Source: an uncultured virus (IMG/VR IMGVR_UViG_3300005405_000007)
Taxonomy: Duplodnaviria > Heunggongvirae > Uroviricota > Caudoviricetes
Length of the DNA: 64,000 nucleotides
Strand: one strand, 5' to 3'
Virus record (IMG/VR): IMGVR_UViG_3300005405_000007
Part shown: one piece after another, positions 3,162 to 59,987 of the stretch
Layout of the letters: each line of letters starts with the position of its first letter
Position numbering within the stretch: the stretch's first letter is position 1
The notes under the pieces: model-generated
Databases searched by the model: none
What the model saw: only the letters and a program-made list of their open reading frames with translations
What the model was told of the DNA's origin: nothing
Program-made: the position numbers and the translations under genes

Positions 3162-3212
3162 AAAGTAGGATAAAATTATATTTTCCTAGTATTTTAGAAA
3201 GGAATGGTATAA

Positions 3213-3389
3213 GTGAAAGAAATTAAACCATGTCCATTTTGTGGAGGCGAAGGTGAATTTAGAGAAGAAGGTGGTTGGGGTTCTATGTGGATAGAATGTC
3301 AGTCTTGTGGTGCTGAAGGTGCATGGGTAGACGGGAATAATGGAGCAACAGAAAATGATGCTATTGATAAATGGAATATGAGAGTATAA
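3213..3389 (+). CDS. Lar-family restriction alleviation zinc-finger protein (58 aa, not in ORF track)
   Basis: MKEIKPCPFCGG..IECQSCGA..AIDKWNMRV. Confidence 0.75.
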   Translation: MKEIKPCPFCGGEGEFREEGGWGSMWIECQSCGAEGAWVDGNNGATENDAIDKWNMRV

Positions 3390-3633
3390 GGAGTGAATTA
3401 TGTGGATAATAATTTTCTAATAACTTATTCCTATGAAAACAATGAAGGAATGACTGATTTTGGTTATAGTTGGTATGAATCAGAGGAATCTATGATTGAA
3501 GATGTAGATTTTAAAAGAGGGTTTTTGAAAGATTTTGAAATACAAGATGCAATGGAAATTTTAGGAGTAAGAAATATTGATTTAAAATAATACCAGCAAA
3601 TCTTGCTTTTTATGTGTTTTAAGGAGGAGTAAA

Positions 3634-4068
3634 ATGTATTATTGTCATACAATAAATGGTTACATAAATGAGAACATTAATAAAATATTATTAAGAGATG
3701 AAAATGTTCTAATATTTACAAATGATATTAATAAAGCTAAAATATTTGATCGGAAAGAAAATTTTTATTGCAGAGAGTTAAAAGATATTGACACAGAATT
3801 TATTGAGATATACATCCCTATAGAATTAAAAAAGTTTTGCATGAAAGAGTATCTAGGAAATATACAAGATAAAACAAAACTTGATGTCTTTGGTAGAAGA
3901 TATTTGACCAAATTTATCGAAAAATCAGACTGGGTATCAAACTGTGCAAAAGTAAATTTGTGGGAAGTAAATATCGAGGATAAATTATATAATAAACATG
4001 GTTATAATAACCATTGGAAAATGCTAATTGATGATTTCCTTGAAAATTATTATATTAATGTTTATTGA
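3634..4068 (+). CDS. Hypothetical phage protein
   Basis: AAGGAGG RBS, 144 aa ORF. Confidence 0.6.
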   Translation: MYYCHTINGYINENINKILLRDENVLIFTNDINKAKIFDRKENFYCRELKDIDTEFIEIYIPIELKKFCMKEYLGNIQDKTKLDVFGRRYLTKFIEKSDWVSNCAKVNLWEVNIEDKLYNKHGYNNHWKMLIDDFLENYYINVY

Positions 4069-4243
4069 ATTTATGTTAAAAGGATGGATAGCGTGTAATA
4101 AAGATGATAAAATCTTACTTGAAGGATTTGGTATCAAATTAAGCGAATACGGTGAAGGTGAATTTACTAATTGTATTGTACCGAAAAAAGCATTGAAGAA
4201 ATTACAACCATATTAGGGTAGATTTATTTGGGGATTATTTTAA
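4058..4243 (+). pseudogene. Small hypothetical protein with probable premature TAG at 4214
   Basis: ..KLQPY*GRFIWGLF*; read-through end falls just before the junction element at 4253. Confidence 0.4.
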
Positions 4244-4502
4244 TTTATAGCATAAAAGGAGATTTTGATTTAGTTTAAAATTAATAAAAGGAGGATATTC
4301 AAATGACAAATTCTGAAGCACAAGCATATGCGATGGTGGCACTCAACAATTTAATCAAAGCAGGTATCATTAAAGCGAAAAATAACAAGAATATATTAGA
4401 TAGTTTAGATAGAGAAATGTATTATCTTTTTGATAGATATTCTGAGGATGAAGTGGTAGAATTAATGGAAAATATTATGATTGGAGAGGTGGATTAAATA
4501 TA

Positions 4503-4940
4503 ATGATGACTTTAGAACAAGCAATTTCAATAGCATCTTTAGCACATGAAGGGCAATTGGATAAAGGTGGCGAACCTTACATTTTGCATCCATTAAGAGT
4601 TATGATGAAACTTAAAGATGAGAAACAAAGAATTATTGCTGTGCTGCATGATATTATTGAGGACACAAAATTAACAGACCAAGATTTGTTAAATCAAGGA
4701 TTGGATTATGAATTAGTTAATCATATTTTAACTTTGACTAGACGTAAAAACGAGAGTTATGATGATTATATTGATCGCATAAGTCAGGATGAATTAGCTA
4801 TTAATGTTAAGTTAGCAGATTTAGAGGACAATATGAATATGTCTAGAATCAAGAATCCAACTGGGAAAGATTATGATCGTATGGTTAAGTATGGGAATGC
4901 TAGGGATAAATTGATAAATATTTTATTTAATATGCAATAA
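4503..4940 (+). CDS. HD-domain small alarmone hydrolase-like protein (RelA/SpoT HD, Mesh1-like)
   Basis: AHEGQLDKGGEPYILHPLRV, AVLHDIIEDT, VKLADLEDN. Confidence 0.85.
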   Translation: MMTLEQAISIASLAHEGQLDKGGEPYILHPLRVMMKLKDEKQRIIAVLHDIIEDTKLTDQDLLNQGLDYELVNHILTLTRRKNESYDDYIDRISQDELAINVKLADLEDNMNMSRIKNPTGKDYDRMVKYGNARDKLINILFNMQ

Positions 4941-5144
4941 GGAGTGAAAAGAATGATAAAATTAGAATGGATTTGTGCGGATTGTGATACAGTCCAAACT
5001 TATGAAAATCTAAATAATGACCCATTGAAAACAAGTGAAATGATAAGGATTAAATGTAAAAAGTGTAAAAATATATTTGAGTTAATTATGAGATTAGGTT
5101 AGGGGATAAATCAAAAGTTTCGATGGAATTGGAGGTAAAATAAG

Positions 5145-5985: not shown

Positions 5986-6759
5986 ATGAGCAAAGATAAT
6001 CTTGGAGATAGAATGAAGGGTTATGAAAATATTGAGAGAAAACATCTAACAAAAAGAATGCCTACATTAATCAGACTTGATGGCAAAGCATTTCATACAT
6101 TCACTAAAGGATTCCAAAGACCATTTGATATGATATTAATGAATAGTATGTGGGAAACAGCACAGTATCTTTGTAAGAATGTTATGGGTTGTAAAATTGC
6201 GTATACTCAAAGTGATGAAATAACTTTACTAATTACTGATTACGATGCTCTTACTACTCAAGCATGGTTTGATAAAAACATACAAAAGATGGTTTCTATC
6301 TCTGCAAGTATGGCAACTATGGCTTTTAATGAAGGTTTTAGAGAAAAAGTAAATAATCTTGAAGTCAATAGTGGCGAGGAAGGTAGGCAATGGGAAAGAT
6401 ATTATTCAAGAGTCGGAACTGCAATGTTTGATAGTAGAGTTTATAATATTCCAAAAGAGGAAGTATGCAACGCTTTTATTTGGAGACAACAAGACGCAAC
6501 TAGGAATGCTATACAAATGGTTGGTCAGGCAAACTTTAGTCACAAACAACTACAAAATAAAACATGTAATCAAATTCAAGAGATGTTATTTCAAGAGAAA
6601 GAAATTAACTTTAATGATTTGCCAACTTATCAAAAGCGTGGAATTTGTATTGTAAAAGAGCAATATGATAAAGAAGGGATTATGCGAAGCAGGTGGGTAA
6701 TTGATGAAAATATTCCTATTTTTACACAAGACAGGGAATATATCGAGAAATATTTATAA
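5986..6759 (+). CDS. tRNA(His) guanylyltransferase Thg1-like protein
   Basis: LGDRMKGYE, IRLDGKAFHTFT, YTQSDEI, FDSRV, WRQQDATRN. Confidence 0.93.
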   Translation: MSKDNLGDRMKGYENIERKHLTKRMPTLIRLDGKAFHTFTKGFQRPFDMILMNSMWETAQYLCKNVMGCKIAYTQSDEITLLITDYDALTTQAWFDKNIQKMVSISASMATMAFNEGFREKVNNLEVNSGEEGRQWERYYSRVGTAMFDSRVYNIPKEEVCNAFIWRQQDATRNAIQMVGQANFSHKQLQNKTCNQIQEMLFQEKEINFNDLPTYQKRGICIVKEQYDKEGIMRSRWVIDENIPIFTQDREYIEKYL

Positions 6760-6908: not shown

Positions 6909-7073
6909 ATGCTAAAACAAGAAAATGCTTACAGATTGTTTGAGGAATTTCCTCATATTAGAAAAACTAAATTATGGGGTGGAAAGTTCTGGAGTGGAAG
7001 TAGTTTTGTTAGTACGGTTGGTAGTGTATCATTGGAAACAGTTAAACAATATATTGAAAATCAAGGAAAATAA
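6909..7073 (+). pseudogene. tnpA: IS200-type Y1 transposase, C-terminal remnant
   Basis: LFEEFPHIRKTKLWGGKFWSGSSFVSTVGSVSLETVKQYIENQ; HUH motif absent. Confidence 0.85.
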
Positions 7074-7118
7074 TTTTTGTAATTAATATACAAACATGAT
7101 ATAATAAATTAATGAAAG

Positions 7119-8571
7119 GTGGTGAATACTCTGTCTAATTTTGTTTTGACTCTTCCACTAAAAACAGAAAAATTTCAAGATGATGTCTTGGATAAGAATT
7201 TTGAGAAATGTAGAAAAATTTATAATGCTTGCATTACTGAATTGCATAAAAGATATAACCATATGAGAGAATCTAAAGAATACCAAAAGAATTGTAAATA
7301 TAAAGGTAAAGATAGAAATAAAATATTTAATACTTTGAACAAAAAGTATAAATTAACAGAGTATTCACTTCATGACTTTATTAAACCAATGGGAAAATAT
7401 TTTAATATTGATGCTATGACTGTTCAAAAAATTGCTACAAGAGCATTTAATGCTTTCCAAGGATTAATATTTCATAAAGCTAAAAAGATTAAATATAAGT
7501 CTTATGGTGAATTAAATTCCATTGAAGGAAAAACTAATAAACAAGGTATTAGGTTTAGAGATAATAATATATTGTTTGCAGGACTAAAAATTCCTGTGAT
7601 CATCAAGAAGAATGATATATATGTTCATATGTCTTTACAAAATAGAGTAAAATATTGCCGTATTAAACGAGAAATAATTAAAGGTAAATATCATTATTAT
7701 GTTCAGTTAGTTTTAGATGGAATTCCTCCAATAAAGATCAACAAAGATACAGGCGAAATTAAACATTATAATAATGATGGTGTAGTTGGTTTAGACATTG
7801 GAACCCAAACTGTAGCTTATTGTTCTAATAGTGAAGTCAAATTACTTGAATTAGTTCCAGAAGTACAAAATATTGAAAAGCAAAAGAGAGTATTACAAAG
7901 AAAAATGGATCGTTCCAGACGTTCTACTAATCCTAATAAGTTTAACGATAACGGTACAATTAATACCAAAGATAAAAACAAATGGATCAAATCCAATCAT
8001 TATATAAAAACTCAAATGAAGTTAAAAGAATTGCAACGAAAGCAAAGAGAAATTAGAAAGCAATCTCATAATCGACTTGCTAATTATATTTTAACATTGG
8101 GTAATGATATTAAGGTTGAGACAATGAGCTACAAGGGGTTACAAGCTAGAGCTAAGAATACTACTGTCGATAAAAAGACAGGTAAGTTTAACAAGAAAAA
8201 AAGATTTGGAAAATCATTAGCAAATAAAGCACCAGCTATGTTTTTGACTATATTGGACAATAAATTAAAATGGATTGATAAGAATTTAAAGAAAATTGAT
8301 ACTTGGAAAGTGAAAGCTAGTCAATATAATCATATTAATGACCAATTCACAAAAAAAGGAACTAGACGAAAGATGGAATGATTTTTGTGAATTTAAGATA
8401 CAGAGAGACTTATATAGCAGTTTTCTTATTATGAATGTTAATGATGATTTAGAAACAATTAATAGGGATTTATGTTTTGAGAAATTTCAAAGCTTTAAAG
8501 TTTTACATGATATTGAGATAGAGCGATTAAAAAATTCAGAGTTGAAAATAATGTTAAGGAATATATTTTAA
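7119..8571 (+). pseudogene. tnpB: TnpB RNA-guided nuclease, +1 frameshift in the A7 tract at 8351-8357
   Basis: RuvC motifs VGLDIG and IKVETMS; the third motif (QRDLYSSFLI) lies in the shifted frame 8338..8571. Confidence 0.85.
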
Positions 8572-25802: not shown

Positions 25803-25811
25803 AATTATTTA

Positions 25812-30096: not shown

Positions 30097-31080
30097 ATGG
30101 ATCATAAATTATTTAATGAAGATCGTAAAAATTGCTTCTTAAATGAGAAATATCCAAATGAATCAACCAGATCAACAAACACTTCTATTTTAAGAAGCGT
30201 AGGAAGATTTGAGTATGAACTAGATAAAGATTTGTGTAGTTTTAGTTACGAAGAAATTAAAGACTTATTAATTGGAATGAAAAAGAAATCTCTTAGATCA
30301 ATGGGTGTAGCTTATGCAATTATTATGCAATATTTAGACTGGTGCTGTTTGGATAAACACTATTCTTCAATGAATGTTTTGAAACTAGTCAACAAGGAAG
30401 ACTTAAAAAAATACATCCATAAAGTTGCTCAAAAAAATTCATTTATTTCAAGAGATCAAATGTATGACTACTGCAACAGACTCCACAACTACGTTGACAA
30501 AGCATTAATAGCATTACTATACGAAGGAATAAGAGGCAGAACTAAAGAGGGATTTTCCTATGAAGAAATAAGAAATCTCAAAAAGACTGATCTTATTCCA
30601 GAATTTAATATAGTGAATGTTATTAAAGACCCCGATGACTTAATTAAAAATCCTTCACCAAGAAAAGTTCAAGTGGATCAAAGAACTATGGATATCCTAA
30701 TAGCAGCATCTAAGGAAGAATATTATCATAAATCAAATGGTGATGCAACAGACACATTTTCTATTTTACCACTAAAGGATACCCCCTTTATTATTAGGTC
30801 TATGGACGTATTCTTTAGCGATGATGATAGAATGACTCCAGGAAATATTAGTTCAAGATTTAGAAATTTTAGAAGTTATTTAAATGTAAAGTTCTTAACA
30901 CCAACTCTTATATTTAAAAGTGGTTTATTAGATAAATGCTTATCAATGGAGAAAGAATTAGGGGAATTGAAGCCGGATCACTTTAAACAACTATACAGGA
31001 ATTTAGAATTGGATGAAAGAAATGGCAACTCTTTAAAGGAAATGTATGACAGTTACAAAAGTAGTCTAACCCCAAAGTAA
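30097..31080 (+). CDS. MrpR/YopR-like phage repressor with tyrosine-recombinase fold, probably catalytically inactive
   Basis: FEYELDKDLCSFSYEEI SAM-like N-domain; ALIALLYEGIRG..EEIRNLK; HxxR replaced by PTLIFKSG; GGAGG RBS before ATG 30097. Confidence 0.75.
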   Translation: MDHKLFNEDRKNCFLNEKYPNESTRSTNTSILRSVGRFEYELDKDLCSFSYEEIKDLLIGMKKKSLRSMGVAYAIIMQYLDWCCLDKHYSSMNVLKLVNKEDLKKYIHKVAQKNSFISRDQMYDYCNRLHNYVDKALIALLYEGIRGRTKEGFSYEEIRNLKKTDLIPEFNIVNVIKDPDDLIKNPSPRKVQVDQRTMDILIAASKEEYYHKSNGDATDTFSILPLKDTPFIIRSMDVFFSDDDRMTPGNISSRFRNFRSYLNVKFLTPTLIFKSGLLDKCLSMEKELGELKPDHFKQLYRNLELDERNGNSLKEMYDSYKSSLTPK

Positions 31081-40136: not shown

Positions 40137-40142
40137 AATAAT

Positions 40143-41337: not shown

Positions 41338-41391
41338 TACCATAAAAAGTTCTTTTATGTTATTTTTAAAGAAGGAAGAAGGATTATATAA

Positions 41392-42333: not shown

Positions 42334-42337
42334 ATAA

Positions 42338-43136
42338 ATGAGCAACAATAAACAAGAAATCTCAATCGACCGTGTAAAACAAATCGTTAAAGAGGAATTA
42401 CAAAAATATGTTCAAGGTAATTTATCGGAAGAGAATTTGAGAAAAACAATTCAAAGTCAATTAGAAAAATCAGGGCAAGATATTGTATTTAAACAATTGG
42501 GTTTAAGAAGAGATTCATGGAAAAGTGGTTGGGAATTAAATGGAGGTTACGGAGGACTTAATGAAGCGGTTAAAAGACTAAATATTTATGATATTGGAGA
42601 ACAAGTAATTAAAGAAATCATTAAAGATGTAACTCCTGAAGATGTATTAGCATCACTTAATAAACAAAACATTCAATCATTAAAAAAGGTTTACAGAGAA
42701 GTTTTAATGGATTATTTTACAAGTAGAGTAAGAGAATTCGCACAAGAACATGGTAGAGAACAAGCTGAAAAATTATTTAAAGAATATTTGTTTGTAGAGC
42801 AATCCAACCAAATTTAACTTTTATCGGATTAAAAGGTGATTTATTGTGAAAAATGCATGGGAATTAACTAGTCAAAAATATAAAACTCAATTAGAAGAAA
42901 TATATGATAATATCAATCAAAATAGGATGAATGAATATAATAAATTAACAAAGAAAATGAGAAGTGAATCTAAAAAGAAATTATTACATACTAGAATGTT
43001 TTTAAACCAATTAACAAAAGAAGAATATGTAAACGAATATCTACAGTGGCATAAAGATTGTGTACTTAATGCTATTGAAGATAAAAAACCGATACCAACG
43101 GAAGTATTGAAGGAGTATAATTTTGAAAGGATGTAA
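42338..43136 (+). other. Two hypothetical ORFs (42338-42817, 42846-43136)
   Basis: ORFs with RBS. Confidence 0.55.
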
Positions 43137-44005: not shown

Positions 44006-44033
44006 ATAATTAAAATAGAAAGGACTGGTATAT

Positions 44034-50000: not shown

Positions 50001-53000
50001 GAACTGATTTTAAAGGATGGAAAATAAAATGGAAATATTAACTGTATGGAACAATAATAAAACAGGGTTAAACGAAGAATGTCTTCGCAATGAAAATGGC
50101 AATTACATAGGAATAAAAACAGGTACTATTTATGATTGTCATGTACACTATCACTCTCAACAATATGAAGCAATTATTATTTCTGTAGACGAAACTAATA
50201 TGACTGGAATGTATCATCTTTATAAAGAGTTAAATGATAATAATAATGAAAACAATAAGAAGTGGAAACGAAAATTCATTGGATGCTATGTTACCGTCGA
50301 AAAAACTCATTGGTGCGGAGAAAAACAAATTTATAGGTGTTTAGAGTTGGGAGATTATTGGTCTAGTGACGAAATAAAGTTACTATAAAAAAGAATTTTA
50401 AAGGAGAAAAGTATGGTACTAAAATCATTTGAAGAAATGTGCGACGATGAAACAATTTGTGACTATTGTTATCGAACAGATTATGGAGAGCATAAATCCT
50501 GTGTCACACCTTCTGGATATTCATCTTGTGAAGGAATGTGGTGCGAAGAGTCTTATGAAACGTATTTAGATGACAATAATGCATCTATAAAATTAATAAA
50601 ATATAAAAATAGTGTAAAATTATTAAATAATGAGGAGTTAATATAATGAGTACGGCACTTAAATTTGAATTTGATTTCGAAGAAGTTTTTGAGGGTATTA
50701 AGTTGGGGGGTAATTAAAGAAATGTCAGAAGCAACTTTTGATGACATTACCACTAGTGCAATTAATCAGGTTAAAAACGAAATGAAAAATAAGATATCTC
50801 TTACATATAAAGATGAATATGAAATCAGAGATGAAATTAAAAAGGAAATTAAAGAAAAGGTATATCAAAAATTAATTTCAGAAATTAAAGATGAATATAA
50901 AAAGAAGTATGAAGACACATTTAGTAAAGATGTGACAAAATCACTTGATCTTGCTGAAGAAGAAATTATGGATGAAATTAAATCTGAAACTATTGATAGA
51001 CTGTATAGTAACTTATATTCAGATATTCAAAATCAAGTAAAATCTGAAATCAATAATTCTATGTCTGAGTTAATTAATGCGATTACAGGAAATAGCATTA
51101 AAATTAAAAATACTAAAAATGCAATTTCCAAAGAGGAATATGATGAACTTATACATAGAGATGAAATACTAACTGCATTGGAAAATGGTGGAGTGGATAA
51201 TTGGGAGTGGTATGGTGAATCTTTGAGCAATTATTTTGATAGTAAAAATAAATAAAAGAGGGAGGATTATAAAAATGAGATTAATAAAAGAATCTACAAA
51301 TTGTGATTGTGGGCGTAAAAGACTGTTAAAAATTGAAAATGAGAAAGATGAATTATTCTTTATTGAATTACTTTCTGGTGATTACTATCATGATAAAATT
51401 GAATATCAAATTATAGGTTATCTTAAAGCATTAAAAGATAATAAAATCGAATATGAGATTGAAAATGCAGGAGCATTTTGTCCAGAGTGTGAATATTAAA
51501 AGAAATAAAAAATAATTTCAAGGAGGATGTATGAAAATTACATCAATTAAAAACAAAAATACTAATATTGATGTCTGCTCTCATTATCTACATAAAGAGT
51601 TGGATATGAGTAAAACCGTAATAATTGTTAACAATCCATTATTGGTAGTTTATGAAAAAGGTTCATTTTTTAACCACGAAAAAGTTATTAATGTAGAGCA
51701 TTTAGAGAATGGTAGTGTTAAAGTGGAGACTCAAAATAAAATATGGGTAATCCAATGATAGAGGAGTATGATGGGATGTACGCTCAATATATAGGAATTT
51801 ATGATGAACCTTATGTTCAATTACACGTAGTTAGAATTGAAGCAAAGAGTCAGAAAGATGCGGAAGACAAGTTTTTAGAACACATTGGAAAAGTAAACAG
51901 TGGAAATGATATCTATGTTGGTTTGATATCTGAGTTAGATATTATAGGATTTCCTGACCCCAATAATTTAAGAGGTAAGAGAAGTTCAGCATATCCTATT
52001 GATGATTTTTGTAATGAACCTGAACTATATAAAATGTTAGAAAAATATATAAAGACAAAATAATCATCTTCCATATACTCCACTATGCTTCCAAATGCTC
52101 TTGTTTTCAAATACTAATATCCCATGAAATCCAAATTTTAAAGGAGATTTTTTCAAAGATGCGTAATTGGTTAGGATTTTTATTACTTGATATTGATGAT
52201 TGGTTTGCAAAAAGAAATATATATTTTGATTTCTTAATAAAAGACAAAGAAACCCATGTGAATTTTTTATGTAGATGGGGAATTAAATTAATAAAATAAA
52301 GTAAACTTTTAAAGGGAAGGATAAATTATGCGAAAACCAAAAGAAAATGAACAAATTTGTACTTATCATCAATATATAGAAGATAAAGCACTTGAAATTT
52401 TAAAAATTAAGAACAATTCATATGATGAAATAGAAGATCTTCTTTATGAAGTACAAGATATAGCAGATGATATTCGTGATGTGGTACTTTTAGCATTAAA
52501 AGAAGGTCAAAATATGGAAAATAGATTAAAAGAATACAGAGACGCAATTGAAGGATTGGGGTTTATGAGGAAGTAATATAATAAATAAGGAGGAAAATAT
52601 GAATAAATTTAAGAACTGGTTGCGATTTAAATTAAGAGATTTTCTGGGAGTAGGAGACATTGAATCAAATTTTAAAGACCACGAAACATTTAATAGCATA
52701 CGATTTTCAGATATTGAAAGTGATATACATGACAAAACTACATATCTAAGAAAACTAATAAATGAAAATGCAAAATATATTTCACATTTTCAAAATTCAG
52801 TAAATGTTTTACATAATACTGTGGAAAATGTTGTGCATATTGGAACAGATGTATGTAAACCAGATCAAGGACATAGTTGGGCGGTAGTGTGTATTGAAGG
52901 AAAAATGAATATTGTTAAATTCGTTGATTTAAATAGACAGGATGCAAGAGGTATACTGGAATACTTAAAACATTTTGAAGCCGGAAGACATTGTATTGAT

Positions 53001-56000
53001 ACGCCATATAAAGAAATGTTCATGGAAGGATTGTTTAAGTTCTAGGCATAATGAATATAAAATAATTATTTGACTTAATAGCATGAATAATATATAATAA
53101 ATGTATATATAAATAGCACGAAAGGTTTCATTTATAGGGTTAGGGAAGGAGGTGAGTAAATCATAAAACTATATACACAAAAAGTTACTCATTGTTTAAA
53201 TTGCCCTAATATCTTTTCAATGAACACAAAAACTAAAACTGGCAAAACCATCAGTGAATACAGATGTAAAGTTGCTGGAGAAAAGAATTGGAAATTCATA
53301 CATATGCAAACAGATAAAGATTATTTTTCTGAATGGTGTCCACTAGAAGATGATGAAGAATCGGATTGTAATTGCAATACTAGAATAATGGATGAATAAG
53401 ATCAGTTAATAAGTTGATTCTATTGGAATAAAAAGGAGTAAAATAAATGTTTAATAAATTTACCAAACACGAATTAAATCAATGGTTACATATAGCTATG
53501 GTTGCTAGTGCAATATATTTTTCTTATGTTGGTAAACCAGTAAGCGCAGTAATACTTTTATTAACAGCAATTTGGGCTGAAGTAGATGAAATAAATAATA
53601 AATAAAATTAATAGAAAGAAGAAAAATAAAAATGATTAAAAGTACAGGATTAACATTACACCTTTACACGACTAAAGAGGAATTAGACAATGCCAAAAAT
53701 GGAGTAAGTACAATTGTAGGATGGACTAAAGAACAAAAACAAACTGGAGCAGTCTATCATATCAGTGTATCTTTAGATGTTTGTGATGTTTTAGAGAAAG
53801 AAGTAAGGATTAATGTTTCTAAAGTTCAAGAACAATTGGCATCTGCTGGTGCAATGATGGGTGAGACAATGGGTAAAGAATCAGAGAAGGTATTTAAACA
53901 GTTTGCTTAGTAAAATGGATCTTAGATTTATAGGAGGGATAAGATTAATATGAGTATGTTTGATGGTGATTGTTCAATGTGTTCTTTACCATCTGATAGT
54001 GACTGGTGTTTAACTTGTAAAAAAGAATTCGGTATGAACAAAGATAAAAATTGGATAGAAACAGATTTAAGTACAGCATTACATAAATTTACATTAGGAT
54101 ATAAAATTGAATGTAGAGTTAATTATTCAATTTGGCAATTTGATTTTTCCAAGAACAACGCAACAGTAATATTAAACCAAAGAATGATAGAGCGTGGTAA
54201 ATGGTTTATGTGTACTGAGAATTAACCAAATAAAAATTCTGTTTGAAAGGATCTGGGTGAAAAAATATGAAAAGTTTTCGTTTTCTTATTGAAGTAAATA
54301 GTATTGGCAAAGGATATGTTTCGGCAGAGAATATTAAGGAAGCAAAAGAAAAGATTAATAAAGGTGATTGGGCAGATATTTAAAGCAGAAATTGATGAGG
54401 AGGGCCATGCTGAGATAATTATAAACGGAGGTGAATTTTCAATATTTAATGGTGAATATGAGATTGTGGAGGAGGGAAATAATTAATGGCATTTTGGAAT
54501 ATAAAACCTAAAAATAATGAAGAAGATATTCAAATTCTAACTCTAAATGATCATGTATATGATTGCTATACTAATAAAGTAAAGGGTAATAAACTTCTTA
54601 CATATGAAATGGTTCAAAAGAAATTAACCAGAAATTATCATTTAGCTAAGAAAGTAAAATTAGGTTCACAAGAATTATGTCTATATGGATGCTTAACGTT
54701 TTTAGTAAGTGAGGGTTGTGTGCTTTGGATTAAGAATTATCCTGGAACAGATACATCTTGGTTCGAGAAAGATATGAAAAAGTATAACATGTTAAATGAG
54801 GAATTAGGTATTAGATATGAAAGGGAATACAAAATTGGATAGAAAGGATGTTTGACATTATGAATAAATTTGAATATAAATTAACTTTTGAATCTGATTC
54901 TGAGAATATTATTGAAATTTTAGGGAAAATCACCGAAATAATCAGAGAAGAATTATTAGGCAAAATGATTAACCCCGCACCATTGATTACTATTTTGGAA
55001 GGAGATAATAATTAAAATGAAATTAATCAAAATAGAAAATTTAGAAAAACAATTTACTATTTTAATTTCAGAAAGTGATTTAGGAACAATATTATTGGCT
55101 TTAGGGAAGTGTTCAGATATGGATATTAGAGAGCATAGAGATGAACGTTATTTTGGAATAAAATATAATCCAGATGCACTTAAAGTATTTCAAGAAGTGA
55201 AAAGTATATTAAAAGTTTAAAACAATTCATTTCTGGGGAGGGTAGTATGAATAAACAGGAAGATATTAAAGTTAGATTATGTATGTTGAAAGTATTAGAT
55301 GGTCAGCATCTAGGAAATTTATGTAGTGAAGAAAAATGTAAACGTTGGAATAAAGAAACAAAAGATTGTAATTTAAATACAAACAAATGACTCTTCTATA
55401 GGGTTGGGAAAGAGGAATAAAGTGGAAATTAAAGATTTTGAAGAAATGCATAGCAAGTTTAAAAAATTAGAAGGATTAAATTCTCAAATTAAGCAAGCAG
55501 AAAAATTTATTCAGTCTCTAGAGGGAGATTTTGAAGTTAAAGAAGTTAGTTTCGTATTAAAACAAGAAAAGAAAGGTATAACCTCTAAAGATATACTGAG
55601 AGTTCTTAATATTAGTAACAAAGAATTCTGTGATTTGTTTATTAATCCAAGTCTAATGGATTTAGCTAAACAGAAATTAGAACATTTACAACAACAATTT
55701 AAAGCAATTGAATTAGGATGAAATTAAGAATTTATGGGAAAGAAGGAAGAATATAAAAATGAGTAAAATAAATGATTTTGTAGCTATTAGAATGGCTGAA
55801 TTAGTCGATAATCAAGAGTGTTCTCCTGTTGGCGAGTATGTTGAAACGGTTGCAGAAGAAGTAAGAACCAAATTTAATATTCAGTGCGATACATGTCATT
55901 GCGGAGGATTTGATAGCCCTGGTTATGAAATTAATTGTTATGCAATGGCATGGATAAATGAAGATGGGAAACTAGAAATGCAAGATTTTCAAGAAGAATC

Positions 56001-56403
56001 TTATTAATTTCAAAGCAAATGTAGTTTTTAATCGGTTATAGAAAGGAGGGAAAATAATGTTAGGAATGATTAGTACAATTGTTATTACTGCATTAGGATT
56101 TTACTTATATCCACAAATACCCATACATGCTCAATATTGGTACGCTGTTGCAATAGGAGGAGCATCAGTGTTTACTCAAATATATCTTGATAGAAAATAG
56201 CATAAATGTTTGATTTTAATTGCTTTAATGGAAGGAGTGAAAAAATGCAAGATATAAAACTCTTAAAAACTTGTGAATATTGTGGAGTACATCTTACTTT
56301 AATGGAAAGCGTTAGATTAGATGATTCTCATCAATTATGTTTGGTTATCAGGTGTTTGAATTGTGGCGGTCATCAAGTAGAAGAGATTGCTGAGATTAAG
56401 TAG
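44034..56403 (+). other. Array of about 40 short hypothetical accessory ORFs (e.g. 44665-45123, 45164-45532, 46625-46975, 47001-47351, 48067-48384, 48384-48893, 48880-49350, 49404-49787, 50017-50388, 50722-51255, 52599-53045, 54486-54842, 55759-56007)
   Basis: Co-oriented, RBS-led ORFs; many junctions carry the palindromic element. Confidence 0.65.
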
Positions 56404-56436
56404 TAATAAGAAAATAATTAAAGAGGAGAAGTGTTA

Positions 56437-57327
56437 ATGGGAGAAATTAAAAAATATACTGATGTTGTTCGACTAGGGCATAGATCAACAGTGGGTGTTT
56501 TAAATGAAGGAGACTATATAGAGGTAACTGAAAAACTAGATGGAGCAAATTCAAGCTTTAAATTAAATGAAGAAAATAAGGTGGATGGATTTTCAAGAAA
56601 CACTCCAGTAGATGAGGTTAATACTTTGCGAGGATATTATGGATGGGTTCAAGGAATTAAACCTGAATTGTTGAATCCAAGGTATAGGTATTTCGGAGAA
56701 TGGTTGGTATCACATAAGATTCAATATAAACAAGAGTGCTATCAAAAATTCTATTTATTTAGTGTTTATGATGATGAATTACAAGAATACTTATCAGATG
56801 ACATTATGGAAAATGAAGCAAATAGATTAGGTCTTAATACAGTACCAATCTTATATAAAGGTCAATACATATCGTTCGAACATTTGATGAGTTTTGTTGG
56901 TAAGTCAGATATGGCAGTAAATTTTGGTGAGGGAATTGTAGTTAAGAATGTGAAATACAGAGACAAATATGGACATCAATGTTTTGTAAAATTAGTCCAT
57001 GAAGAATTCGCAGAAACACAAAAACAGAAACCACCTAAAGATCCTAATCGACCTGCTACGCCTGAACAAGAATTTGCTAATATGTGTGTTACAAAAGCTA
57101 GAGTAGATAAGATGTTATATAAATTAGTTGATGAGGGTATTCTTGAATCTGATTTTGGGATTGAAGATATGAGATTAATTCTTAGTAATTTAGGTACTAG
57201 AATTTATGAAGATATTCTCAAAGAAGAAAGTGATTCTTTACCTGAAGGATATGAGATTCAAGCACTTAGGAAAGCAATTGGTAGTAAAATACCTCAGATT
57301 GTAAAAGATATTATAGGTAATAAATAA
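56437..57327 (+). CDS. ATP-dependent RNA ligase (Rnl2-like family)
   Basis: VTEKLDGANSS, FSRN, FGEW, FYLFSVYD, GEGIVVK, FVKLV. Confidence 0.85.
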   Translation: MGEIKKYTDVVRLGHRSTVGVLNEGDYIEVTEKLDGANSSFKLNEENKVDGFSRNTPVDEVNTLRGYYGWVQGIKPELLNPRYRYFGEWLVSHKIQYKQECYQKFYLFSVYDDELQEYLSDDIMENEANRLGLNTVPILYKGQYISFEHLMSFVGKSDMAVNFGEGIVVKNVKYRDKYGHQCFVKLVHEEFAETQKQKPPKDPNRPATPEQEFANMCVTKARVDKMLYKLVDEGILESDFGIEDMRLILSNLGTRIYEDILKEESDSLPEGYEIQALRKAIGSKIPQIVKDIIGNK

Positions 57328-57381
57328 CCCATTAAATCATTCAATCTATAGTAAATTACTAATATAAAGGAGAGAAAATAA

Positions 57382-57693
57382 ATGTTAAACCTAACTCAAA
57401 TTGCAGTAATAGATCAAGAATTATTAGATGAATTAATTAATGATGGCGAATGTACATCAATTAAAGATGTAAATTTTGAAGATGTTCAATTTGGAGATTA
57501 TGCACAAACCGCTTTAGTTGATGAAGATAGAAAATGGATTATATATTGGAATGACAATATTCATGGTAATCCTGATGATTTTCTTGATGGTTTTACAAAT
57601 GCTTTGGAACATTTAGATATTGAATATTCATTAGAAACAGAAGTAAGAATGGATACTGATATGAAGGGGTACAAAGGAGTAACATATAATTAA
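57382..57693 (+). CDS. Acidic hypothetical protein
   Basis: AAGGAG RBS. Confidence 0.55.
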   Translation: MLNLTQIAVIDQELLDELINDGECTSIKDVNFEDVQFGDYAQTALVDEDRKWIIYWNDNIHGNPDDFLDGFTNALEHLDIEYSLETEVRMDTDMKGYKGVTYN

Positions 57694-58144
57694 TAAATAA
57701 ATAATTACATAGGAGTGATTGCCTTGGATAAATATGAATGGTACTGCCCTCTATGTGGTAAATATCATTACCAATACATAAGTGAATTTACTCCAAGAAA
57801 GTGTAAAAATTGTTATAATGAATTCTTTGTAAACAAAATTGGTGAAGTCAAGATTATTTGGGAAAGAGGATTTTAAGGAGGTTGAGATGTCAAAGCTCGA
57901 AGAACAGATGTATGAAGATTTAGTAGTGGCCTATGATTTAATATTACGTCTGATAGATGGGGAAGTGTCGGTAATGAAACTAGCAGTTGAAGATGCTGTA
58001 TTTTATTTAAATAAAAATGTAAAATATGCCAAAAGAGAATTACATTAACAAATATAAAATAATTTATTTGCAATTGTAATTTGGTTGTGGTATCCTAAAG
58101 TAGGAAGGTTATTCTATAAGAAAGGATGGAATCGAGGTGGTAAA

Positions 58145-58705
58145 TTGAATTTCAAACAACCTAAAAATGAAACAGAAACACATTTCTTACTAAAGGAAAT
58201 ATCCAAATACATACTTTTTGGATGGGGTTATAAAATTTTAGCAACTGAAGTATCAGGCATGTGGGACTTAGATATTGGCAAAAAGAGAAAAGAAATAATC
58301 GATTGTGTTGGTTTGAAGAAAGTACGTGTTGCTCCTAGAAAGTTTCATTATGATATGAAAGGTATAGAAGCAAAAGCAAGTTTAAGTGATTTTAACAATG
58401 GTTTCTGTTGTGCAAGTGCCTATACATACATAATTTGTCCTATAAATACTATTCCTATCGATACGATTCCAAAGGATATAGGCGTTATCGAGGTTGATCT
58501 TAGTATTTTTGAGATGAAAAAATATTCTCAAAAGATTTCAGACATGAAGGGTGTATCCTTGGTAAGAAAAGCTAAGAAAAGAATTGACTCAAGATTTAAA
58601 GACGAGGAAGCTTATAGAAAATGGTGTGAAAGAAGTTTAGAAAGAGTTGCCTATAGATGTGGTAGTGAATTGTTGTTTTGGAGGAATTTTATTGAGTTTA
58701 GTTAG
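58145..58705 (+). CDS. PD-(D/E)xK nuclease-like (MmcB-like) protein
   Basis: ATEV..IIDCVG..GIEAKASLSDF..YIICP..IPKDIGVI. Confidence 0.6.
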   Translation: MNFKQPKNETETHFLLKEISKYILFGWGYKILATEVSGMWDLDIGKKRKEIIDCVGLKKVRVAPRKFHYDMKGIEAKASLSDFNNGFCCASAYTYIICPINTIPIDTIPKDIGVIEVDLSIFEMKKYSQKISDMKGVSLVRKAKKRIDSRFKDEEAYRKWCERSLERVAYRCGSELLFWRNFIEFS

Positions 58706-58736
58706 TAGAAAATAATAAATAGGGAGGCATGTTGTT

Positions 58737-59396
58737 TTGATTAACTCAATAATGAACAATATAAGAGTAGCACAGGTAAGGTGTCTTAATGAAGAAAAAA
58801 CAGGAGCAAATAAAGGGTTTCTAGTTTGGTTGGTTGCAAACAAAGGTTATGATTTTGGAATGACAGATTATCAAGATCCAGATGAAGAAGATAGATTGCT
58901 TAAAGATAAAATGTTTACAGGAAATACTATTGATGAAGCATTACATCAAGCATCTGATTTTTTACTTGGATTGGAATTAAATGAGATAACAAACAATACA
59001 AAAGACAATACATTGAAAGTTTAGTTTAATAGGATTGGAGGTAAACATATGGAATTAGATAGAAAGAGTTTAGGACATAAAAGTATAGTTTGGGCATGTG
59101 CGTATGACGAAGATAATAATTATGATTATTCACATTTAAAACAATTACCAATAAGAGGAGTTATTTTAGATAAGCGTCAAGCAGGAATGACGAAACCTAA
59201 ATATAGCAGTCAAGTATTTGTACCACTTAATAAAAATGATGAACCAGTTAAAAGTAAAGTAGTAGATATTTATTCTAGGCACTATGCGAATACATATGAA
59301 GAATGCGTTGAAGTTTATAATGGATTAATTCAGACACGTATTGACCGATTAAATGAAATTATTAACGAGTGTGAAACGCATAAGATAACCAATTAG
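58737..59396 (+). other. Two hypothetical ORFs (58737-59024, 59049-59396)
   Basis: ORFs with RBS. Confidence 0.55.
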
Positions 59397-59987
59397 AACA
59401 GTTATTTCACAGTATTTTTATTGAAGGAGGTGAAACATGCAGAAAGTAAGATTTCTTAAAGACTTTGATACATTTGCGAAAGACTCTTATCGAGTAATTC
59501 TAGGCGAAGATGATCAGTATTATTTTATTCAAACAGATTTACATAGTTTAGAAACAACACATTTTCATAAGAGTCATAATGGTATATCGTTTATAGTTGT
59601 AGAAAGAAGCTAAAATAATAAATAGAAGGAGATATAAAAAAATATGAGTGTATCATACAATCGTAGGAAAAAAGTAAAGAAAATGATTGCACGACTCAAA
59701 CAAATGACAATTGAGCAGTACAAGAAATTAAGACCAGAAGAGGTAATTGGACACAGGAAGATTGTTGACTTTATGAAGGAACATGATATTCGGTGTAGGG
59801 TTGGTTGATCACTTCAAAGGAAAATTTTAAGCTATTATAAATTTTAGAAAGGATTGATTGCTTGCTTGAAGAATTCAGGTACAGGTTGGAAAGCAATTAA
59901 ACGTGGAGTACCGCCACCTATTGCAATATAATAATTATTTACTTAATGATAATAAAATAAAAATAATGGAAGAGGGTATTTATACAT

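What the first reader, a model, noticed from the sequence alone, without database searches (positions are those of the whole stretch)
3171..59409. Recombinase-core-like palindrome at accessory gene junctions: an integron-like cassette array in a phage?
Seen: YRAAW-N6-TTTYR with variable 6-bp spacer and frequent CC/GG flanks. Examples: ccctTAAAA ttgtga TTTTAgagg (38012), cccaTGAAA tccaaa TTTTAaagg (52125), TAAAA gtgtgg TTTTAtcgg (11869), TAAAA ctttga TTTCGagg (13601), TGAAA tgtgga TTTCGttgg (16187), TAAAA cgaatc TTTCAagg (49357). By eye I count roughly 50-60 degenerate copies at junctions, typically between a gene end and the next RBS. The left arm often supplies the stop codon (11869, 13857, 16187, 44241, 45121). 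I saw no clear copies at junctions inside the agr-repressor module or the replication operon. Established: inverted arms around a 6-8 bp spacer is tyrosine-recombinase core architecture, and integron cassettes often have their stop codon inside the att site. Inference: accessory genes are captured and shuffled as cassettes. Alternative: genome-wide binding sites for the recombinase-fold repressor.
Basis: partly seen in the sequence, partly recalled or inferred. Interest (0 to 1): 0.86.

Follow-up and report, generated by a model that had tools for sequence, protein, structure and literature searches.

The report
Gene-junction palindrome of SPbeta-like phages
About half of the gaps between the small early genes of this large SPbeta-like phage hold the same short AT-rich palindrome, which also occurs in the model phage SPbeta, where it marks the joints at which related phages differ in gene content.

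Summary
The motif is real. The strict pattern is not enriched over the whole window (51 matches against 38.6 expected). At gene junctions it is strongly spacing-specific: 16 hits at N6 against 1-8 at other spacings. Unseeded motif discovery recovers it (log-likelihood 198 against 59-65 in shuffles). The consensus is AAATCCnATAAAAt-N4-aTTTTATnGGATTT. The window has 46 junction copies at 10 bits or more, and 45 of 95 junctions of 26 nt or longer hold one.

It is not an RNA or ssDNA hairpin: the arms do not covary and the fold is not stable. That argues against an attC/integron mechanism.

The same core, TAAAA-N6-TTTTA, fills junctions in two related contigs, in Bacillus phage SPbeta (34 exact copies against 0-3 at other spacings), in its relatives, in Geobacillus E3 and in a Staphylococcus SPbeta-like phage. 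It is absent from SPO1 and phage K.

In SPbeta relatives, 18 of 21 palindrome-bearing junctions are mosaic boundaries, against 14 of 45 without it.

No active recombinase was found.

Best reading: a two-fold symmetric protein-docking DNA linker between exchangeable gene cassettes, reader protein unknown. The ParB/DndB-like YopQ/SroE is a candidate.

This scan noted the same element before on other SPbeta-like phages.

The parts
981..1006 (.). junction palindrome copy
   Evidence: PWM >=10 bits, junction; 13.3 bits
3166..3191 (.). junction palindrome copy
   Evidence: 12.6 bits
3591..3616 (.). junction palindrome copy
   Evidence: 14.4 bits
4248..4273 (.). junction palindrome copy
   Evidence: 10.6 bits
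5102..5127 (.). junction palindrome copy
   Evidence: 12.6 bits
5902..5927 (.). junction palindrome copy
   Evidence: 14.8 bits
6761..6786 (.). junction palindrome copy, directly behind the Thg1-like gene
   Evidence: 16.0 bits
   Evidence: 17.9 bits
12288..12313 (.). junction palindrome copy
   Evidence: 13.5 bits
12627..12652 (.). junction palindrome copy
   Evidence: 12.8 bits
12939..12964 (.). junction palindrome copy
   Evidence: 15.8 bits
13308..13333 (.). junction palindrome copy
   Evidence: 11.4 bits
   Evidence: 16.2 bits
14467..14492 (.). junction palindrome copy
   Evidence: 11.0 bits
15456..15481 (.). junction palindrome copy
   Evidence: 10.8 bits
   Evidence: 18.0 bits
22558..22583 (.). 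junction palindrome copy, last before the agr/repressor module
   Evidence: 18.9 bits
31140..31165 (.). junction palindrome copy, first after the MrpR-like gene
   Evidence: 10.2 bits
36587..36612 (.). junction palindrome copy
   Evidence: 19.7 bits
37192..37217 (.). junction palindrome copy
   Evidence: 12.9 bits
   Evidence: 20.1 bits
40175..40200 (.). junction palindrome copy (weak)
   Evidence: 10.1 bits
40347..40372 (.). junction palindrome copy
   Evidence: 18.6 bits
40543..40568 (.). junction palindrome copy
   Evidence: 15.6 bits
   Evidence: 12.0 bits
44615..44640 (.). junction palindrome copy
   Evidence: 13.0 bits
   Evidence: 16.0 bits
45699..45724 (.). junction palindrome copy
   Evidence: 15.1 bits
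45929..45954 (.). junction palindrome copy
   Evidence: 16.9 bits
46413..46438 (.). junction palindrome copy
   Evidence: 18.8 bits
48009..48034 (.). junction palindrome copy
   Evidence: 14.1 bits
   Evidence: 21.0 bits
49992..50017 (.). junction palindrome copy
   Evidence: 15.1 bits
   Evidence: 22.1 bits
52292..52317 (.). junction palindrome copy
   Evidence: 11.1 bits
53114..53139 (.). junction palindrome copy
   Evidence: 15.2 bits
53402..53427 (.). junction palindrome copy
   Evidence: 13.4 bits
54226..54251 (.). junction palindrome copy
   Evidence: 14.7 bits
55213..55238 (.). junction palindrome copy
   Evidence: 10.7 bits
55378..55403 (.). junction palindrome copy
   Evidence: 16.3 bits
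55714..55739 (.). junction palindrome copy
   Evidence: 16.5 bits
56010..56035 (.). junction palindrome copy
   Evidence: 14.7 bits
56198..56223 (.). junction palindrome copy
   Evidence: 13.3 bits
57328..57353 (.). junction palindrome copy
   Evidence: 14.9 bits
   Evidence: 11.8 bits
59809..59834 (.). junction palindrome copy, last before the replication genes
   Evidence: 17.5 bits
28746..30095 (+). YopQ/SroE-like gene (candidate reader of the palindrome; inference only)
   Evidence: phrog_5732; 23% identity over 423 aa to SPbeta YopQ, E 8e-23; SPbeta YopQ hits Pfam DndB 7e-16
30097..31080 (+). MrpR/YopR/SroF-like recombinase-fold repressor gene (not the likely reader)
   Evidence: Pfam MrpR_N_CB 7.8e-18, MrpR_C_cat 1.6e-8; 23% identity to SPbeta YopR, His/Arg-II positions read T and K

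Best explanation
The element is the local, rather degenerate version of a junction palindrome shared by SPbeta-like phages. Its core is TAAAA-N6-TTTTA. In this window it extends to AAATCCnATAAAAt-N4-aTTTTATnGGATTT.

It most likely works as double-stranded DNA: a two-fold symmetric docking site for a dimeric protein not yet identified (inferred). It sits as a standard linker between gene cassettes. It begins at or on the upstream gene's stop codon and ends a few bases before the next ribosome-binding site (shown).

In the SPbeta family the junctions that carry it are the preferred places where blocks of genes are replaced between related phages (shown for SPbeta against Goe13, phi3T, SPbetaL8 and BUCT083; inferred for this window's phage). 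Whether the exchange is catalysed at the site, or is only tolerated and favoured there, is open.

It is not an RNA hairpin, not an attC-type site, and not the MrpR/SroF operator.
For: Enrichment at junctions, specific to location and spacing, with unseeded rediscovery against shuffled controls.

The position matrix is mirror-symmetric down to the minor alleles, and the symmetry extends to about 32 bp. The spacer carries about 0 bits. That is the pattern of independently drifting half-sites of a dimer site, not of copies of a mobile repeat.

No arm covariation: 5.26 observed pairs of 9, against 5.55 with shuffled partners. No fold stability: mean MFE -2.02 kcal/mol for n=54, against -2.32 for chimeric arms. 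In SPbeta the values are -1.64 against -2.11 for n=34.

The same motif is the top unseeded hit in relatives G001 and G002, in SPbeta (162.5 against 58.8-71.6 in 3 shuffles) and in Geobacillus E3 (177 against 49).

Exact TAAAA-N6-TTTTA counts:
- SPbeta: 34, against 0-3 at the eight other spacings N2-N10.
- Six loci of SPbeta relatives: 5-14, against 0-1.
- Geobacillus E3: 15, against 1.23 expected.
- Staphylococcus SPbeta-like: 7, against 1-2.
- Negative controls: SPO1 0; phage K 1, against 1.31 expected.

Mosaic boundaries in SPbeta:
- HSP ends inside the predefined 32-bp element: 13 of 40 and 7 of 44. Expected 8.6% and 8.0% of junction-zone positions; P 2.4e-6 and 8.2e-3.
- Junctions with a breakpoint: 18 of 21 with the motif against 14 of 45 without. 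Fisher P 3.4e-5, odds ratio 13.
- Homology starts exactly at |ATAAAA or ends at TTTTAA|, next to unrelated neighbouring genes.

In the window the motif is not tied to particular orthologous genes. Only 28 and 25 of 180 genes have homologues in the two collinear relatives.
Against: No protein has been shown to bind the element; the DNA-level reading rests on symmetry and on the failure of the RNA readings.

In the window's own clade the breakpoint test shows nothing: 1 of 64 HSP ends lies in the element. Identity there is only 64-84%, so the ends are fuzzy.

In SPbeta, 64 of 84 HSP ends lie outside the element.

The three relatives used per region are not independent. Counting unique positions gives 11 of 32 and 5 of 34 in the element.

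Junction length was not controlled in the Fisher test.

A search for precise joins of one copy's left side to another copy's right side found 0 in six comparisons, with a control of 0.

The strictly conserved arms are only 5 bp.

In relative G002 the unseeded log-likelihood (74.7) was not compared with a null and may be near it.
Confidence: 0.5

Rival explanations
1. The palindromes are docking or loading sites of the phage's ParB/DndB-like 'second repressor' (YopQ = SroE; window 28746-30095). It would bind as a dimer at dozens of junctions and help silence or organise the early region in lysogeny. The link with cassette boundaries would then be secondary. This names a reader for the best explanation rather than contradicting it.
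For: - A YopQ homologue sits next to the MrpR-like gene in the window and in G001, G002, SPbeta, phi3T, Geobacillus E3 and the Staphylococcus SPbeta-like phage. All of these have the palindrome.
[quoted passage not shown] SPbeta YopQ hits Pfam DndB at 7e-16.
- DndB binds a spaced palindrome, TACG-N10-CGTA (PMC4507180, abstract and passages).
- SroE is required for lysogeny and its role is stated to be unclear (bioRxiv 10.1101/2025.11.27.690993, discussion passage).
- Copies are rare or absent in the modules likely to be expressed in lysogeny.
Against: - The palindrome core is invariant, while YopQ is only 37.6% identical between SPbeta and phi3T and 23-33% identical in the other lineages. The neighbouring repressor changed its box over the same distances.
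- The window's protein itself hits no ParB or DndB model.
- No binding data exist.
- Co-occurrence was examined only in phages found through YopQ or close kin, so it is not a test.
Confidence: 0.2
2. An integron-like cassette system. A tyrosine recombinase (a YopP/XerC-like enzyme, or host Xer) binds the inverted arms and exchanges strands at the 6-bp spacer, so that single genes are captured, excised and shuffled as units.
For: - The architecture, inverted arms around a 6-bp spacer, is that of tyrosine-recombinase core sites.
- SPbeta, Geobacillus E3 and the Staphylococcus phage carry an orphan XerC-like gene (yopP, E3_0148, SPbetalike_00013) directly upstream of yopQ.
- Mosaic boundaries fall at the element in SPbeta relatives.
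- In the window, 17, 12 and 9 of 53 inter-site intervals hold 1, 2 and 3 genes.
Against: - The spacer is unconserved, and lox/dif-type exchange needs identical overlap regions.
- There are no attC-like hairpins.
- No Phage_integrase hit reaches the cut-off in G000, G001 or G002. The syntenic place upstream of yopQ holds agrB instead. These genomes are only 56%, 44% and 35% complete.
- 0 precise two-site deletions or insertions in six SPbeta comparisons.
- The MrpR-like protein lacks the His and second Arg of the catalytic set.
Confidence: 0.12
3. An RNA-level signal in the polycistronic early transcripts: a weak hairpin, an RNase processing site, or a translation terminator-and-enhancer unit between cistrons.
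For: - It always lies between a stop codon and the next RBS on the coding strand. The core end is mostly 15-37 nt before the start codon.
- 38 of 54 sites contain the upstream stop.
- The phage carries MazF-like RNases and RNA-repair genes.
Against: - No fold stability and no covariation.
- Mirror symmetry has no meaning for a single-stranded RNA reader.
- In long gaps the element can lie next to the stop and far from the next start, or the reverse.
- SPbeta copies also occur beside genes on the opposite strand.
Confidence: 0.06
4. Operator array of the recombinase-fold master repressor (MrpR/YopR/SroF-like, window 30097-31080).
For: - The repressor gene is present.
- SPBRE-type boxes are dispersed over the genome and some lie just upstream of an RBS in SPbeta.
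Against: - SPbeta MrpR ChAP-seq gave ten peaks, all at SPBRE promoters, although SPbeta has 34 exact palindromes (PMC10516654 passages).
- SPBRE rederived here is an asymmetric word, CAAATAyAAAwAATATGT, found in 7 of 7 upstream regions tested.
- SroF of phi3T is a monomer reading an asymmetric 26-bp box.
- The repressors of G000, G001 and G002 are about 25% identical to each other, yet the palindrome is shared.
- The window has a separate oriented box, RAAAATAAAATA: 7 of 7 copies on the + strand, against 1.06 expected.
Confidence: 0.05
5. No element at all: a chance composite of a TAA stop codon, an AT-rich gap and the T-rich run in front of AAGGAGG.
For: The whole-window count is not significant. 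The left arm is often the stop codon.
Against: - Sharp preference for the N6 spacing.
- The shuffled-junction null.
- 40 of 54 sites do not use the left arm as the stop codon.
- AT-rich phage K shows no excess.
Confidence: 0.02

Closest known systems
PeSLs (promoter-early stem-loops) of T4-type phages (Arbiol et al. 2010, PMC2839356; Comeau et al. 2014, PMC4122927; abstracts read)
   Same: A short conserved intergenic motif repeated through hyperplastic, ORFan-rich regions of a large phage. Insertions, deletions and replacements between close relatives have their ends at the motif.
   Different: PeSLs are composite sigma70-type promoters plus terminator stem-loops that recombine by homology and form mini-circles. 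Here there is no -35/-10 pattern, no stable stem-loop, only 5-bp invariant arms, and no circles or precise two-site deletions were seen.
SPBRE / Phi3TRE boxes bound by MrpR = YopR = SroF in SPbeta and phi3T (PMC10516654; bioRxiv 10.1101/2025.11.27.690993; passages read)
   Same: A dispersed repeated site in the same phage family, often just upstream of an RBS.
   Different: SPBRE is an asymmetric, highly conserved 15-26-bp word with about 10 copies in promoters. It is read by a monomer and differs between heteroimmune phages. The junction palindrome is symmetric, has 34 copies in SPbeta and about 46-56 here, and is identical in SPbeta and phi3T.
Integron attC sites with IntI
   Same: A site at each cassette boundary. 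The stop codon often lies inside the site. The array consists of small, mostly unknown genes in one orientation.
   Different: attC sites act as folded single strands with paired arms and a conserved R box, next to an intI gene. None of these features is met here.
Tyrosine-recombinase core sites (dif, loxP). The B. subtilis dif sequence was confirmed by text match in PMC3025954.
   Same: Inverted arms around a 6-bp centre, 26-32 bp in total.
   Different: dif has 11-bp arms with a conserved XerD arm and occurs once per chromosome. My by-eye alignment of the SPbeta left arm to the dif left arm at the spacer border gives 6 of 11 matches. Partner sites need identical spacers, and here the spacers are random.
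Stoperators of cluster A mycobacteriophages such as L5
   Same: Dozens of protein-binding sites placed in the short gaps between genes along a temperate phage genome.
   Different: Stoperators are asymmetric, orientation-dependent and bound by the immunity repressor. This element is symmetric and shared by heteroimmune phages.
REP/REPIN-type extragenic palindromes with RAYT transposases
   Same: Palindromes wedged between a stop codon and the next RBS.
   Different: REPs are stable hairpins whose copies share ancestry, spacer included. Here there is no stability and the spacers are random. Only a 54-aa Y1-transposase fragment is present.
DndB and ParB/KorB-type operators (DndB: PMC4507180, abstract and passages read; KorB: recalled)
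   Same: Palindromic sites read by a dimer of a ParB/Srx-fold protein. The DndB site is a spaced palindrome. KorB has about a dozen dispersed operators.
   Different: Those systems have far fewer sites, and GC-containing ones. No binding has been shown for YopQ/SroE.

Membership tests
Integron (IntI + attC cassette array) | IntI-type tyrosine recombinase gene beside the array | tested here: not met
   PF00589 search of G000, G001 and G002 found no hit over the cut-off; the best was 16.8 bits, in the MrpR-like ORF of G001. Caveat: the records are 56%, 44% and 35% complete.
Integron (IntI + attC cassette array) | Sites fold as single-stranded hairpins with paired, covarying arms | tested here: not met
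   5.26 against 5.55 pairs. MFE -2.02 against -2.32 for chimeric arms. SPbeta -1.64 against -2.11.
Integron (IntI + attC cassette array) | Conserved R-box core (GTTRRRY / RYYYAAC; recalled) at the crossover point | tested here: not met
   The conserved arms are TAAAA / TTTTA with TCC / GGA flanks.
Integron (IntI + attC cassette array) | Gene gain and loss breakpoints lie in the sites | tested here: inconclusive
   Block boundaries are enriched at the element in SPbeta relatives. In the window's clade the count is 1 of 64. Precise two-site events: 0.
lox/dif-type tyrosine-recombinase core site | Two inverted arms around a 6-8-bp spacer | tested here: met
   The N6 spacing preference and the symmetric matrix.
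lox/dif-type tyrosine-recombinase core site | Identical spacer (overlap) in partner sites | tested here: not met
   Spacer positions carry 0.00-0.21 bits. The SPbeta spacers all differ.
MrpR/SroF operator (SPBRE, Phi3TRE) | Asymmetric 15-26-bp word read by a monomer | tested here: not met
   The element is palindromic. SPBRE rederived here is CAAATAyAAAwAATATGT. Monomer on a 26-bp box.
MrpR/SroF operator (SPBRE, Phi3TRE) | Bound by MrpR in vivo | not testable with these tools
   Published ChAP-seq in SPbeta gave ten peaks, all at SPBRE promoters (PMC10516654). No data exist for this phage.
PeSL | Strong sigma70-like early promoter in the motif | tested here: not met
   No conserved -35 or -10 columns from -50 to +75 around 54 sites.
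PeSL | Stem-loop terminator in the motif | tested here: not met
PeSL | Lies in hyperplastic ORFan regions and bounds indels or replacements between close relatives | tested here: met
   Window. SPbeta relatives.
REP/REPIN + RAYT | Stable hairpin repeat plus a cognate Y1 transposase | tested here: not met
   No fold stability. Only a 54-aa Y1_Tnp fragment, at 6909-7073, beside a TnpB-like gene.
SPbeta-family junction palindrome (as noted earlier in this scan; no published name found) | Core TAAAA-N6-TTTTA between stop codon and RBS in many junctions of an SPbeta-like genome | tested here: met
   Window. SPbeta-like gene order, with yopQ-yopR followed by helicase, RecJ-like, PolIII-alpha, RNR and dUTPase genes.
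ParB/DndB-type operator | Palindrome plus a cognate ParB/DndB-fold protein that binds it | not testable with these tools
   The palindrome and a YopQ homologue are both present. Binding is untested.

The most novel reading that the evidence does not exclude
SPbeta-like phages, including the laboratory model SPbeta, may run a dedicated gene-cassette exchange system that is not an integron. In this reading a conserved phage protein docks as a dimer on a universal double-stranded junction palindrome and directs breakage and rejoining at its arms. The ParB/DndB-like SroE/YopQ is the most accessible candidate; an unrecognised nuclease or recombinase is the alternative. Any ORFan cassette from any family member, across Bacillus, Geobacillus, Staphylococcus and uncultured groundwater hosts, could then be plugged in between a ready-made stop codon and a ready-made RBS.
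Probability: 0.15. Interest if true: 0.9.

Novelty: new variant of a known kind. Interest (0 to 1): 0.68.

Why it matters
Large temperate phages carry long arrays of small genes of unknown function, many of them anti-defence genes, and these arrays turn over very fast. Only 28 and 25 of the 180 genes called here have homologues in two collinear relatives.

A single short DNA word marks the joints of these arrays. It is shared by SPbeta-like phages of several host genera and is present in a genetically tractable model. That makes the question of how phage accessory genes are swapped, and how they are controlled as units, directly testable in SPbeta and phi3T.

The element would also give annotators a simple marker for gene boundaries and cassette units in this phage family.

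I found no description of the element in the papers I could search. The 1999 SPbeta genome paper is not in the library.

Tried and rejected
RNA or ssDNA hairpin (attC, terminator, RNase III site, N4-type promoter): rejected.

Promoter: there is no -35 or -10 signal around 54 sites. YonO uses one late promoter in SPbeta (PMC5467207, passages).

MrpR operator: rejected.

Host dif/Xer site: the resemblance is weak, 6 of 11 positions by eye, and the geometry differs. Dropped.

REP/RAYT: rejected.

ComK (AAAA-N5-TTTT), CodY, cre, LexA and other Firmicute boxes were compared from memory only. None fits the N6 palindrome. Not tested.

Second highly conserved dispersed word in the window:
- The repeat finder gave none.
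- EM after masking gave only an A-rich word with log-likelihood about 72 and no null run.
- The exact word RAAAATAAAATA was then checked.

TTGATACA repeats: local to one promoter.

Public reads: no RNA holder is listed. The one DNA run is probably the source sample and is held as contigs. The joints seen there have short sides (23-57 nt) at low likeness and come from related phages in the sample, so nothing can be concluded from them.

Near-identical relatives: none in the 'phages' collection by megablast or blastn. Only two IMG/VR relatives were found, at 76-79% ligase identity.

Breakpoint test in the window's clade: 1 of 64, uninformative.

Arm versus spacer conservation in orthologous SPbeta copies: 1 of 230 against 1 of 138 mismatches, so there is too little divergence to tell.

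Precise two-site deletion search: 0, with control 0.

Earlier-findings look-up by place: nothing for this genome.

Not run: structure or complex prediction of the YopQ-like protein.

Full report
WHAT THE WINDOW IS

The window is the reverse complement of bases 30350-94349 of a 94,410-base virus record. CheckV estimates the record as 56% complete. GC is 26-31%. In my own crude gene call almost all genes lie on the + strand: 139 genes in the window and 180 on the contig.

The gene content is that of an SPbeta-like phage.
- A YopQ-like gene (28746-30095) and a MrpR/YopR-like gene (30097-31080) lie side by side.
- Downstream come a DnaB-like helicase, a RecJ-like exonuclease, a PolIII-alpha, a RecD2-like helicase, an intein-bearing RNR and a dUTPase. 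This is the same order as yorI-yorL ... yosS in SPbeta.
- The rest is mostly small genes without Pfam matches, plus DNA methylases, RNA-repair enzymes and anti-defence genes.

IS THE MOTIF THERE?

All six example sites exist. Counted over the whole window and both strands, the strict pattern is not above chance: 51 matches against 38.6, with 6 of 100 shuffles reaching 51.

Split by place and spacing, it is. On the + strand, junctions hold 16 hits at N6, 8 at N5 and 1-5 at each other spacing from N0 to N15. Coding DNA, seven times larger, holds 8 at N6.

Unseeded ZOOPS EM was run on the junctions with 400 random seeds and the 12 nt before each start codon removed. It converges on TaAAA..a..aTTTtAt.gg in about 56% of 121 junctions. 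The log-likelihood is 197.9 (118 junctions), against 58.6-65.5 in six shuffled sets.

With the refined 26-column matrix the window has 46 junction and 6 coding copies at 10 bits or more. By junction length:
- under 26 nt: 0 of 43 carry a copy;
- 26-60 nt: 28 of 55;
- 61-120 nt: 11 of 27;
- longer: 6 of 13.

ANATOMY

Across 54 sites the conserved columns run from -3 to +28: AAATCCnATAAAAt-N4-aTTTTATnGGATTT. The matrix is mirror-symmetric even in its minor alleles, for example C/A at the outer CC and A/G/C next to the A-run on both sides. The central positions carry 0.00-0.21 bits.

The element starts on or just behind the upstream stop codon. In 38 of 54 sites the stop lies inside the element, and in 14 of 54 it is the first three bases of the left arm. 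In most copies the element ends 15-37 nt before the next start codon. In long gaps it can lie at either end or in the middle. Nothing resembling a -35 box lies upstream.

NOT AN RNA OR SINGLE-STRAND HAIRPIN

Pairing between the two arms of a site is no better than between arms of different sites: 5.26 against 5.55 of 9 positions.

Mean MFE of the 32-nt elements is -2.02 kcal/mol (n=54). Chimeric arm combinations give -2.32 and shuffles -1.60. Only 4% reach -5. The 34 SPbeta copies behave the same way, -1.64 against -2.11.

A symmetric consensus with independently drifting halves and a random centre is what a dimeric DNA-binding protein leaves. It is not what a folded RNA, an attC site or a family of mobile-repeat copies leaves.

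A FAMILY-WIDE ELEMENT

Two IMG/VR contigs, G001 and G002, carry a ligase 79% and 76% identical in protein to the window's. They are collinear with the window but share only 28 and 25 of its contig's 180 genes. Unseeded EM on their junctions returns the same motif as the top hit. No null was run there, and the G002 score is low.

Because the gene order pointed to SPbeta, I ran the same procedure on SPbeta c2.
- The top motif of its early-region junctions is TAAAAt.....TTTTAaa, with log-likelihood 162.5 against 58.8-71.6 in shuffles.
- The exact word TAAAA-N6-TTTTA occurs 34 times, against 0-3 for each other spacing N2-N10.
- It is again placed between stop codon and RBS.
- It has palindromic TCTAGA-like flanks.

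Other phages:
- Six loci of Goe13, phi3T, SPbetaL8 and BUCT083 have 5-14 exact copies, against 0-1 at other spacings.
- A 41-kb stretch of Geobacillus virus E3 has 15, against 1.23 expected, and the motif is its top unseeded hit.
- A 32-kb stretch of a Staphylococcus SPbeta-like phage has 7, against 1-2.
- B. subtilis phage SPO1 (first 50 kb) has 0.
- AT-rich Staphylococcus phage K (first 45 kb) has 1, against 1.31 expected.

The element therefore belongs to the SPbeta lineage, not to the host or to base composition.

NOT THE MrpR OPERATOR

In SPbeta, ChAP-seq of MrpR gave ten peaks, all at promoters carrying SPBRE (PMC10516654, passages). I rederived SPBRE from seven of those upstream regions. 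It is an asymmetric, nearly invariant word, CAAATAyAAAwAATATGT.

A 2025 preprint reports the phi3T homologue SroF as a monomer reading an asymmetric 26-bp box (10.1101/2025.11.27.690993, passages).

SPbeta and phi3T differ in that box but share the junction palindrome. The MrpR-like proteins of G000, G001 and G002 are about 25% identical to each other.

The window also has a separate oriented word, RAAAATAAAATA. It has 7 copies, all on the + strand, against 1.06 expected. Most lie in promoter-bearing gaps, and the word resembles the reverse complement of the phi3T box. It is a better candidate for the repressor's site.

MOSAIC BOUNDARIES

Only the SPbeta group has relatives close enough (88-100% identity) for breakpoint mapping. 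I compared two SPbeta regions, 81.5-101.5 kb and 110.8-134.4 kb, each with three relatives. I took the internal ends of blastn HSPs of at least 150 nt and at least 85% identity.

Ends inside the 32-bp element, whose extent was fixed beforehand from the window's consensus:
- Region 1: 13 of 40. The element covers 1.6% of all positions and 8.6% of the junction zone. P = 2.4e-6 on the junction-only null.
- Region 2: 7 of 44. The element covers 1.5% and 8.0%. P = 8.2e-3.
- Counting unique positions: 11 of 32 and 5 of 34.

At the level of junctions, 18 of 21 motif-bearing junctions have a boundary in at least one relative, against 14 of 45 motif-less junctions of 16 nt or more. Fisher P = 3.4e-5 and the odds ratio is 13. 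The effect is seen in both regions.

The joints are sharp. In several cases unrelated upstream genes abut the identical ATAAAA-spacer-TTTTAA copy, or a shared upstream gene and copy are followed by unrelated DNA directly after TTTTAA(A).

Limits of this evidence:
- 64 of 84 ends lie elsewhere.
- The relatives share ancestry.
- Junction length is not controlled.
- A systematic search for precise joins of one copy's left side to another copy's right side found none, with a control of 0.

The data therefore show preferred replacement boundaries. They do not show excision or insertion of units.

THE WINDOW'S OWN CLADE AND THE READS

Against G001 and G002 (64-84% identity), 1 of 64 HSP ends lies in an element. 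This is uninformative. The motif does not travel with particular orthologous genes.

The only public run holding the sequence is probably its source and is kept as contigs. It shows other related phages in the sample but nothing interpretable at the palindromes.

RECOMBINASE AND CANDIDATE READER

No Phage_integrase-family gene passes the cut-off in the three partial genomes. The MrpR-like protein lacks the catalytic His and second Arg.

SPbeta, E3 and the Staphylococcus phage have an orphan XerC-like gene upstream of yopQ. In the window that place is taken by agrB.

The one conserved neighbour with the right properties is YopQ/SroE:
- It has a ParB_N_Srx fold (PMC8612738, passage).
- SPbeta YopQ belongs to the Pfam DndB family.
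- DndB binds a spaced palindrome (PMC4507180).
- It is needed for lysogeny, and its role is stated to be unclear.

This is a lead only. Its sequence diverges strongly (37.6% identity between SPbeta and phi3T) while the palindrome does not change.

PRIOR KNOWLEDGE

I found no mention of the element in these sources:
- two SPbeta overviews (term searches);
- the MrpR paper;
- the hybrid-phage preprint;
- the YonO paper;
- a full-text search for the two arm words together with 'phage' and 'intergenic', which returned 0 papers.

The 1999 genome paper and the 2023 sro paper are not in the library.

Earlier notes of this scan describe the same palindrome on other SPbeta-like phages. Two reach the reading given here, and one assigns it to the repressor. 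These are unchecked AI notes, not independent evidence.

The closest published analogue in function is the PeSL of T4-type phages (abstracts).

Noticed in passing
window 8962, 14520, 26906, 31713, 37228, 38042, 47737: An oriented 12-nt word, RAAAATAAAATA, occurs 7 times, all on the + strand, against 1.06 expected; 0 of 100 shuffles reach 7. Most copies lie in promoter-bearing gaps, for example just upstream of the ligase promoter. The word resembles the reverse complement of the published phi3T SroF box, so it is a candidate MrpR-like repressor box.
   Followed up: partly
window 28669-28717: Three tandem TGATACATAT units plus an inverted copy lie between a promoter-like stretch and the RBS of the YopQ-like gene. 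TTGATACA is not enriched elsewhere (9 matches against 6.0 expected). This is probably a local operator of the repressor operon.
   Followed up: partly
window 6909-8381: Remnant of an IS200/IS605-type element: a 54-aa Y1-transposase C-terminal fragment followed by a 420-aa TnpB-like gene (phrog_506), with small GC-rich hairpins on both sides.
   Followed up: no
window 16228-20349: A 1373-aa fusion of a kinase (AAA_33), a metallophosphatase and a T4 Rnl1-type RNA ligase, with a LAGLIDADG domain near residues 225-279 (probably an intein). Other parts of a large RNA/tRNA repair kit are a Thg1-like gene (5986-6759), an Rnl2-type ligase (56431-57327), a YqeY-like gene (33643-34092) and two PTH2 paralogues (21801-22325 and 35377-35715, which share a 300-nt repeat at 82% identity).
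   Followed up: no
window 23136-28528: Two MazF/PemK-like genes (23136-23543; 27013-27804, the latter with an N-terminal extension) and an agrB homologue (27821-28528) lie directly upstream of the YopQ/MrpR-like pair. In SPbeta-like Bacillus phages the arbitrium system and MazF are linked.
   Followed up: no
window about 37950-37985 and 52070-52105; L002 about 12040-12090: A second conserved non-coding stretch, of the type CTCTCATACTCACTTATACTCTTAAATGCTCC, was seen by eye in two long gaps of the window and downstream of the ligase gene in relative G002. Its function is unknown.
   Followed up: no
window 3213-3389 and 50722-51255: Anti-defence genes sit inside the cassette arrays: a Lar-like restriction-alleviation protein and a protein with a T7 gp5.9-type RecBCD-inhibitor domain.
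   Followed up: no
L024 (Staphylococcus phage SPbeta-like, 32 kb around yopQ): The top unseeded junction motif there is not the palindrome but an A-rich oriented word, AAGAAATAAAATATAAaAAA (log-likelihood 126 against 58 in shuffles). It is probably that phage's SroF/MrpR box.
   Followed up: no
window 40000-59999, run X1: The probable source metagenome holds other contigs that match short patches of this stretch at 85-95% identity, so several related phages coexist in the sample.
   Followed up: partly
SPbeta record 76171-76186 (L014): One SPbeta palindrome copy lies 9 nt upstream of the SPBRE of the aimR promoter, so the two elements can be neighbours.
   Followed up: no
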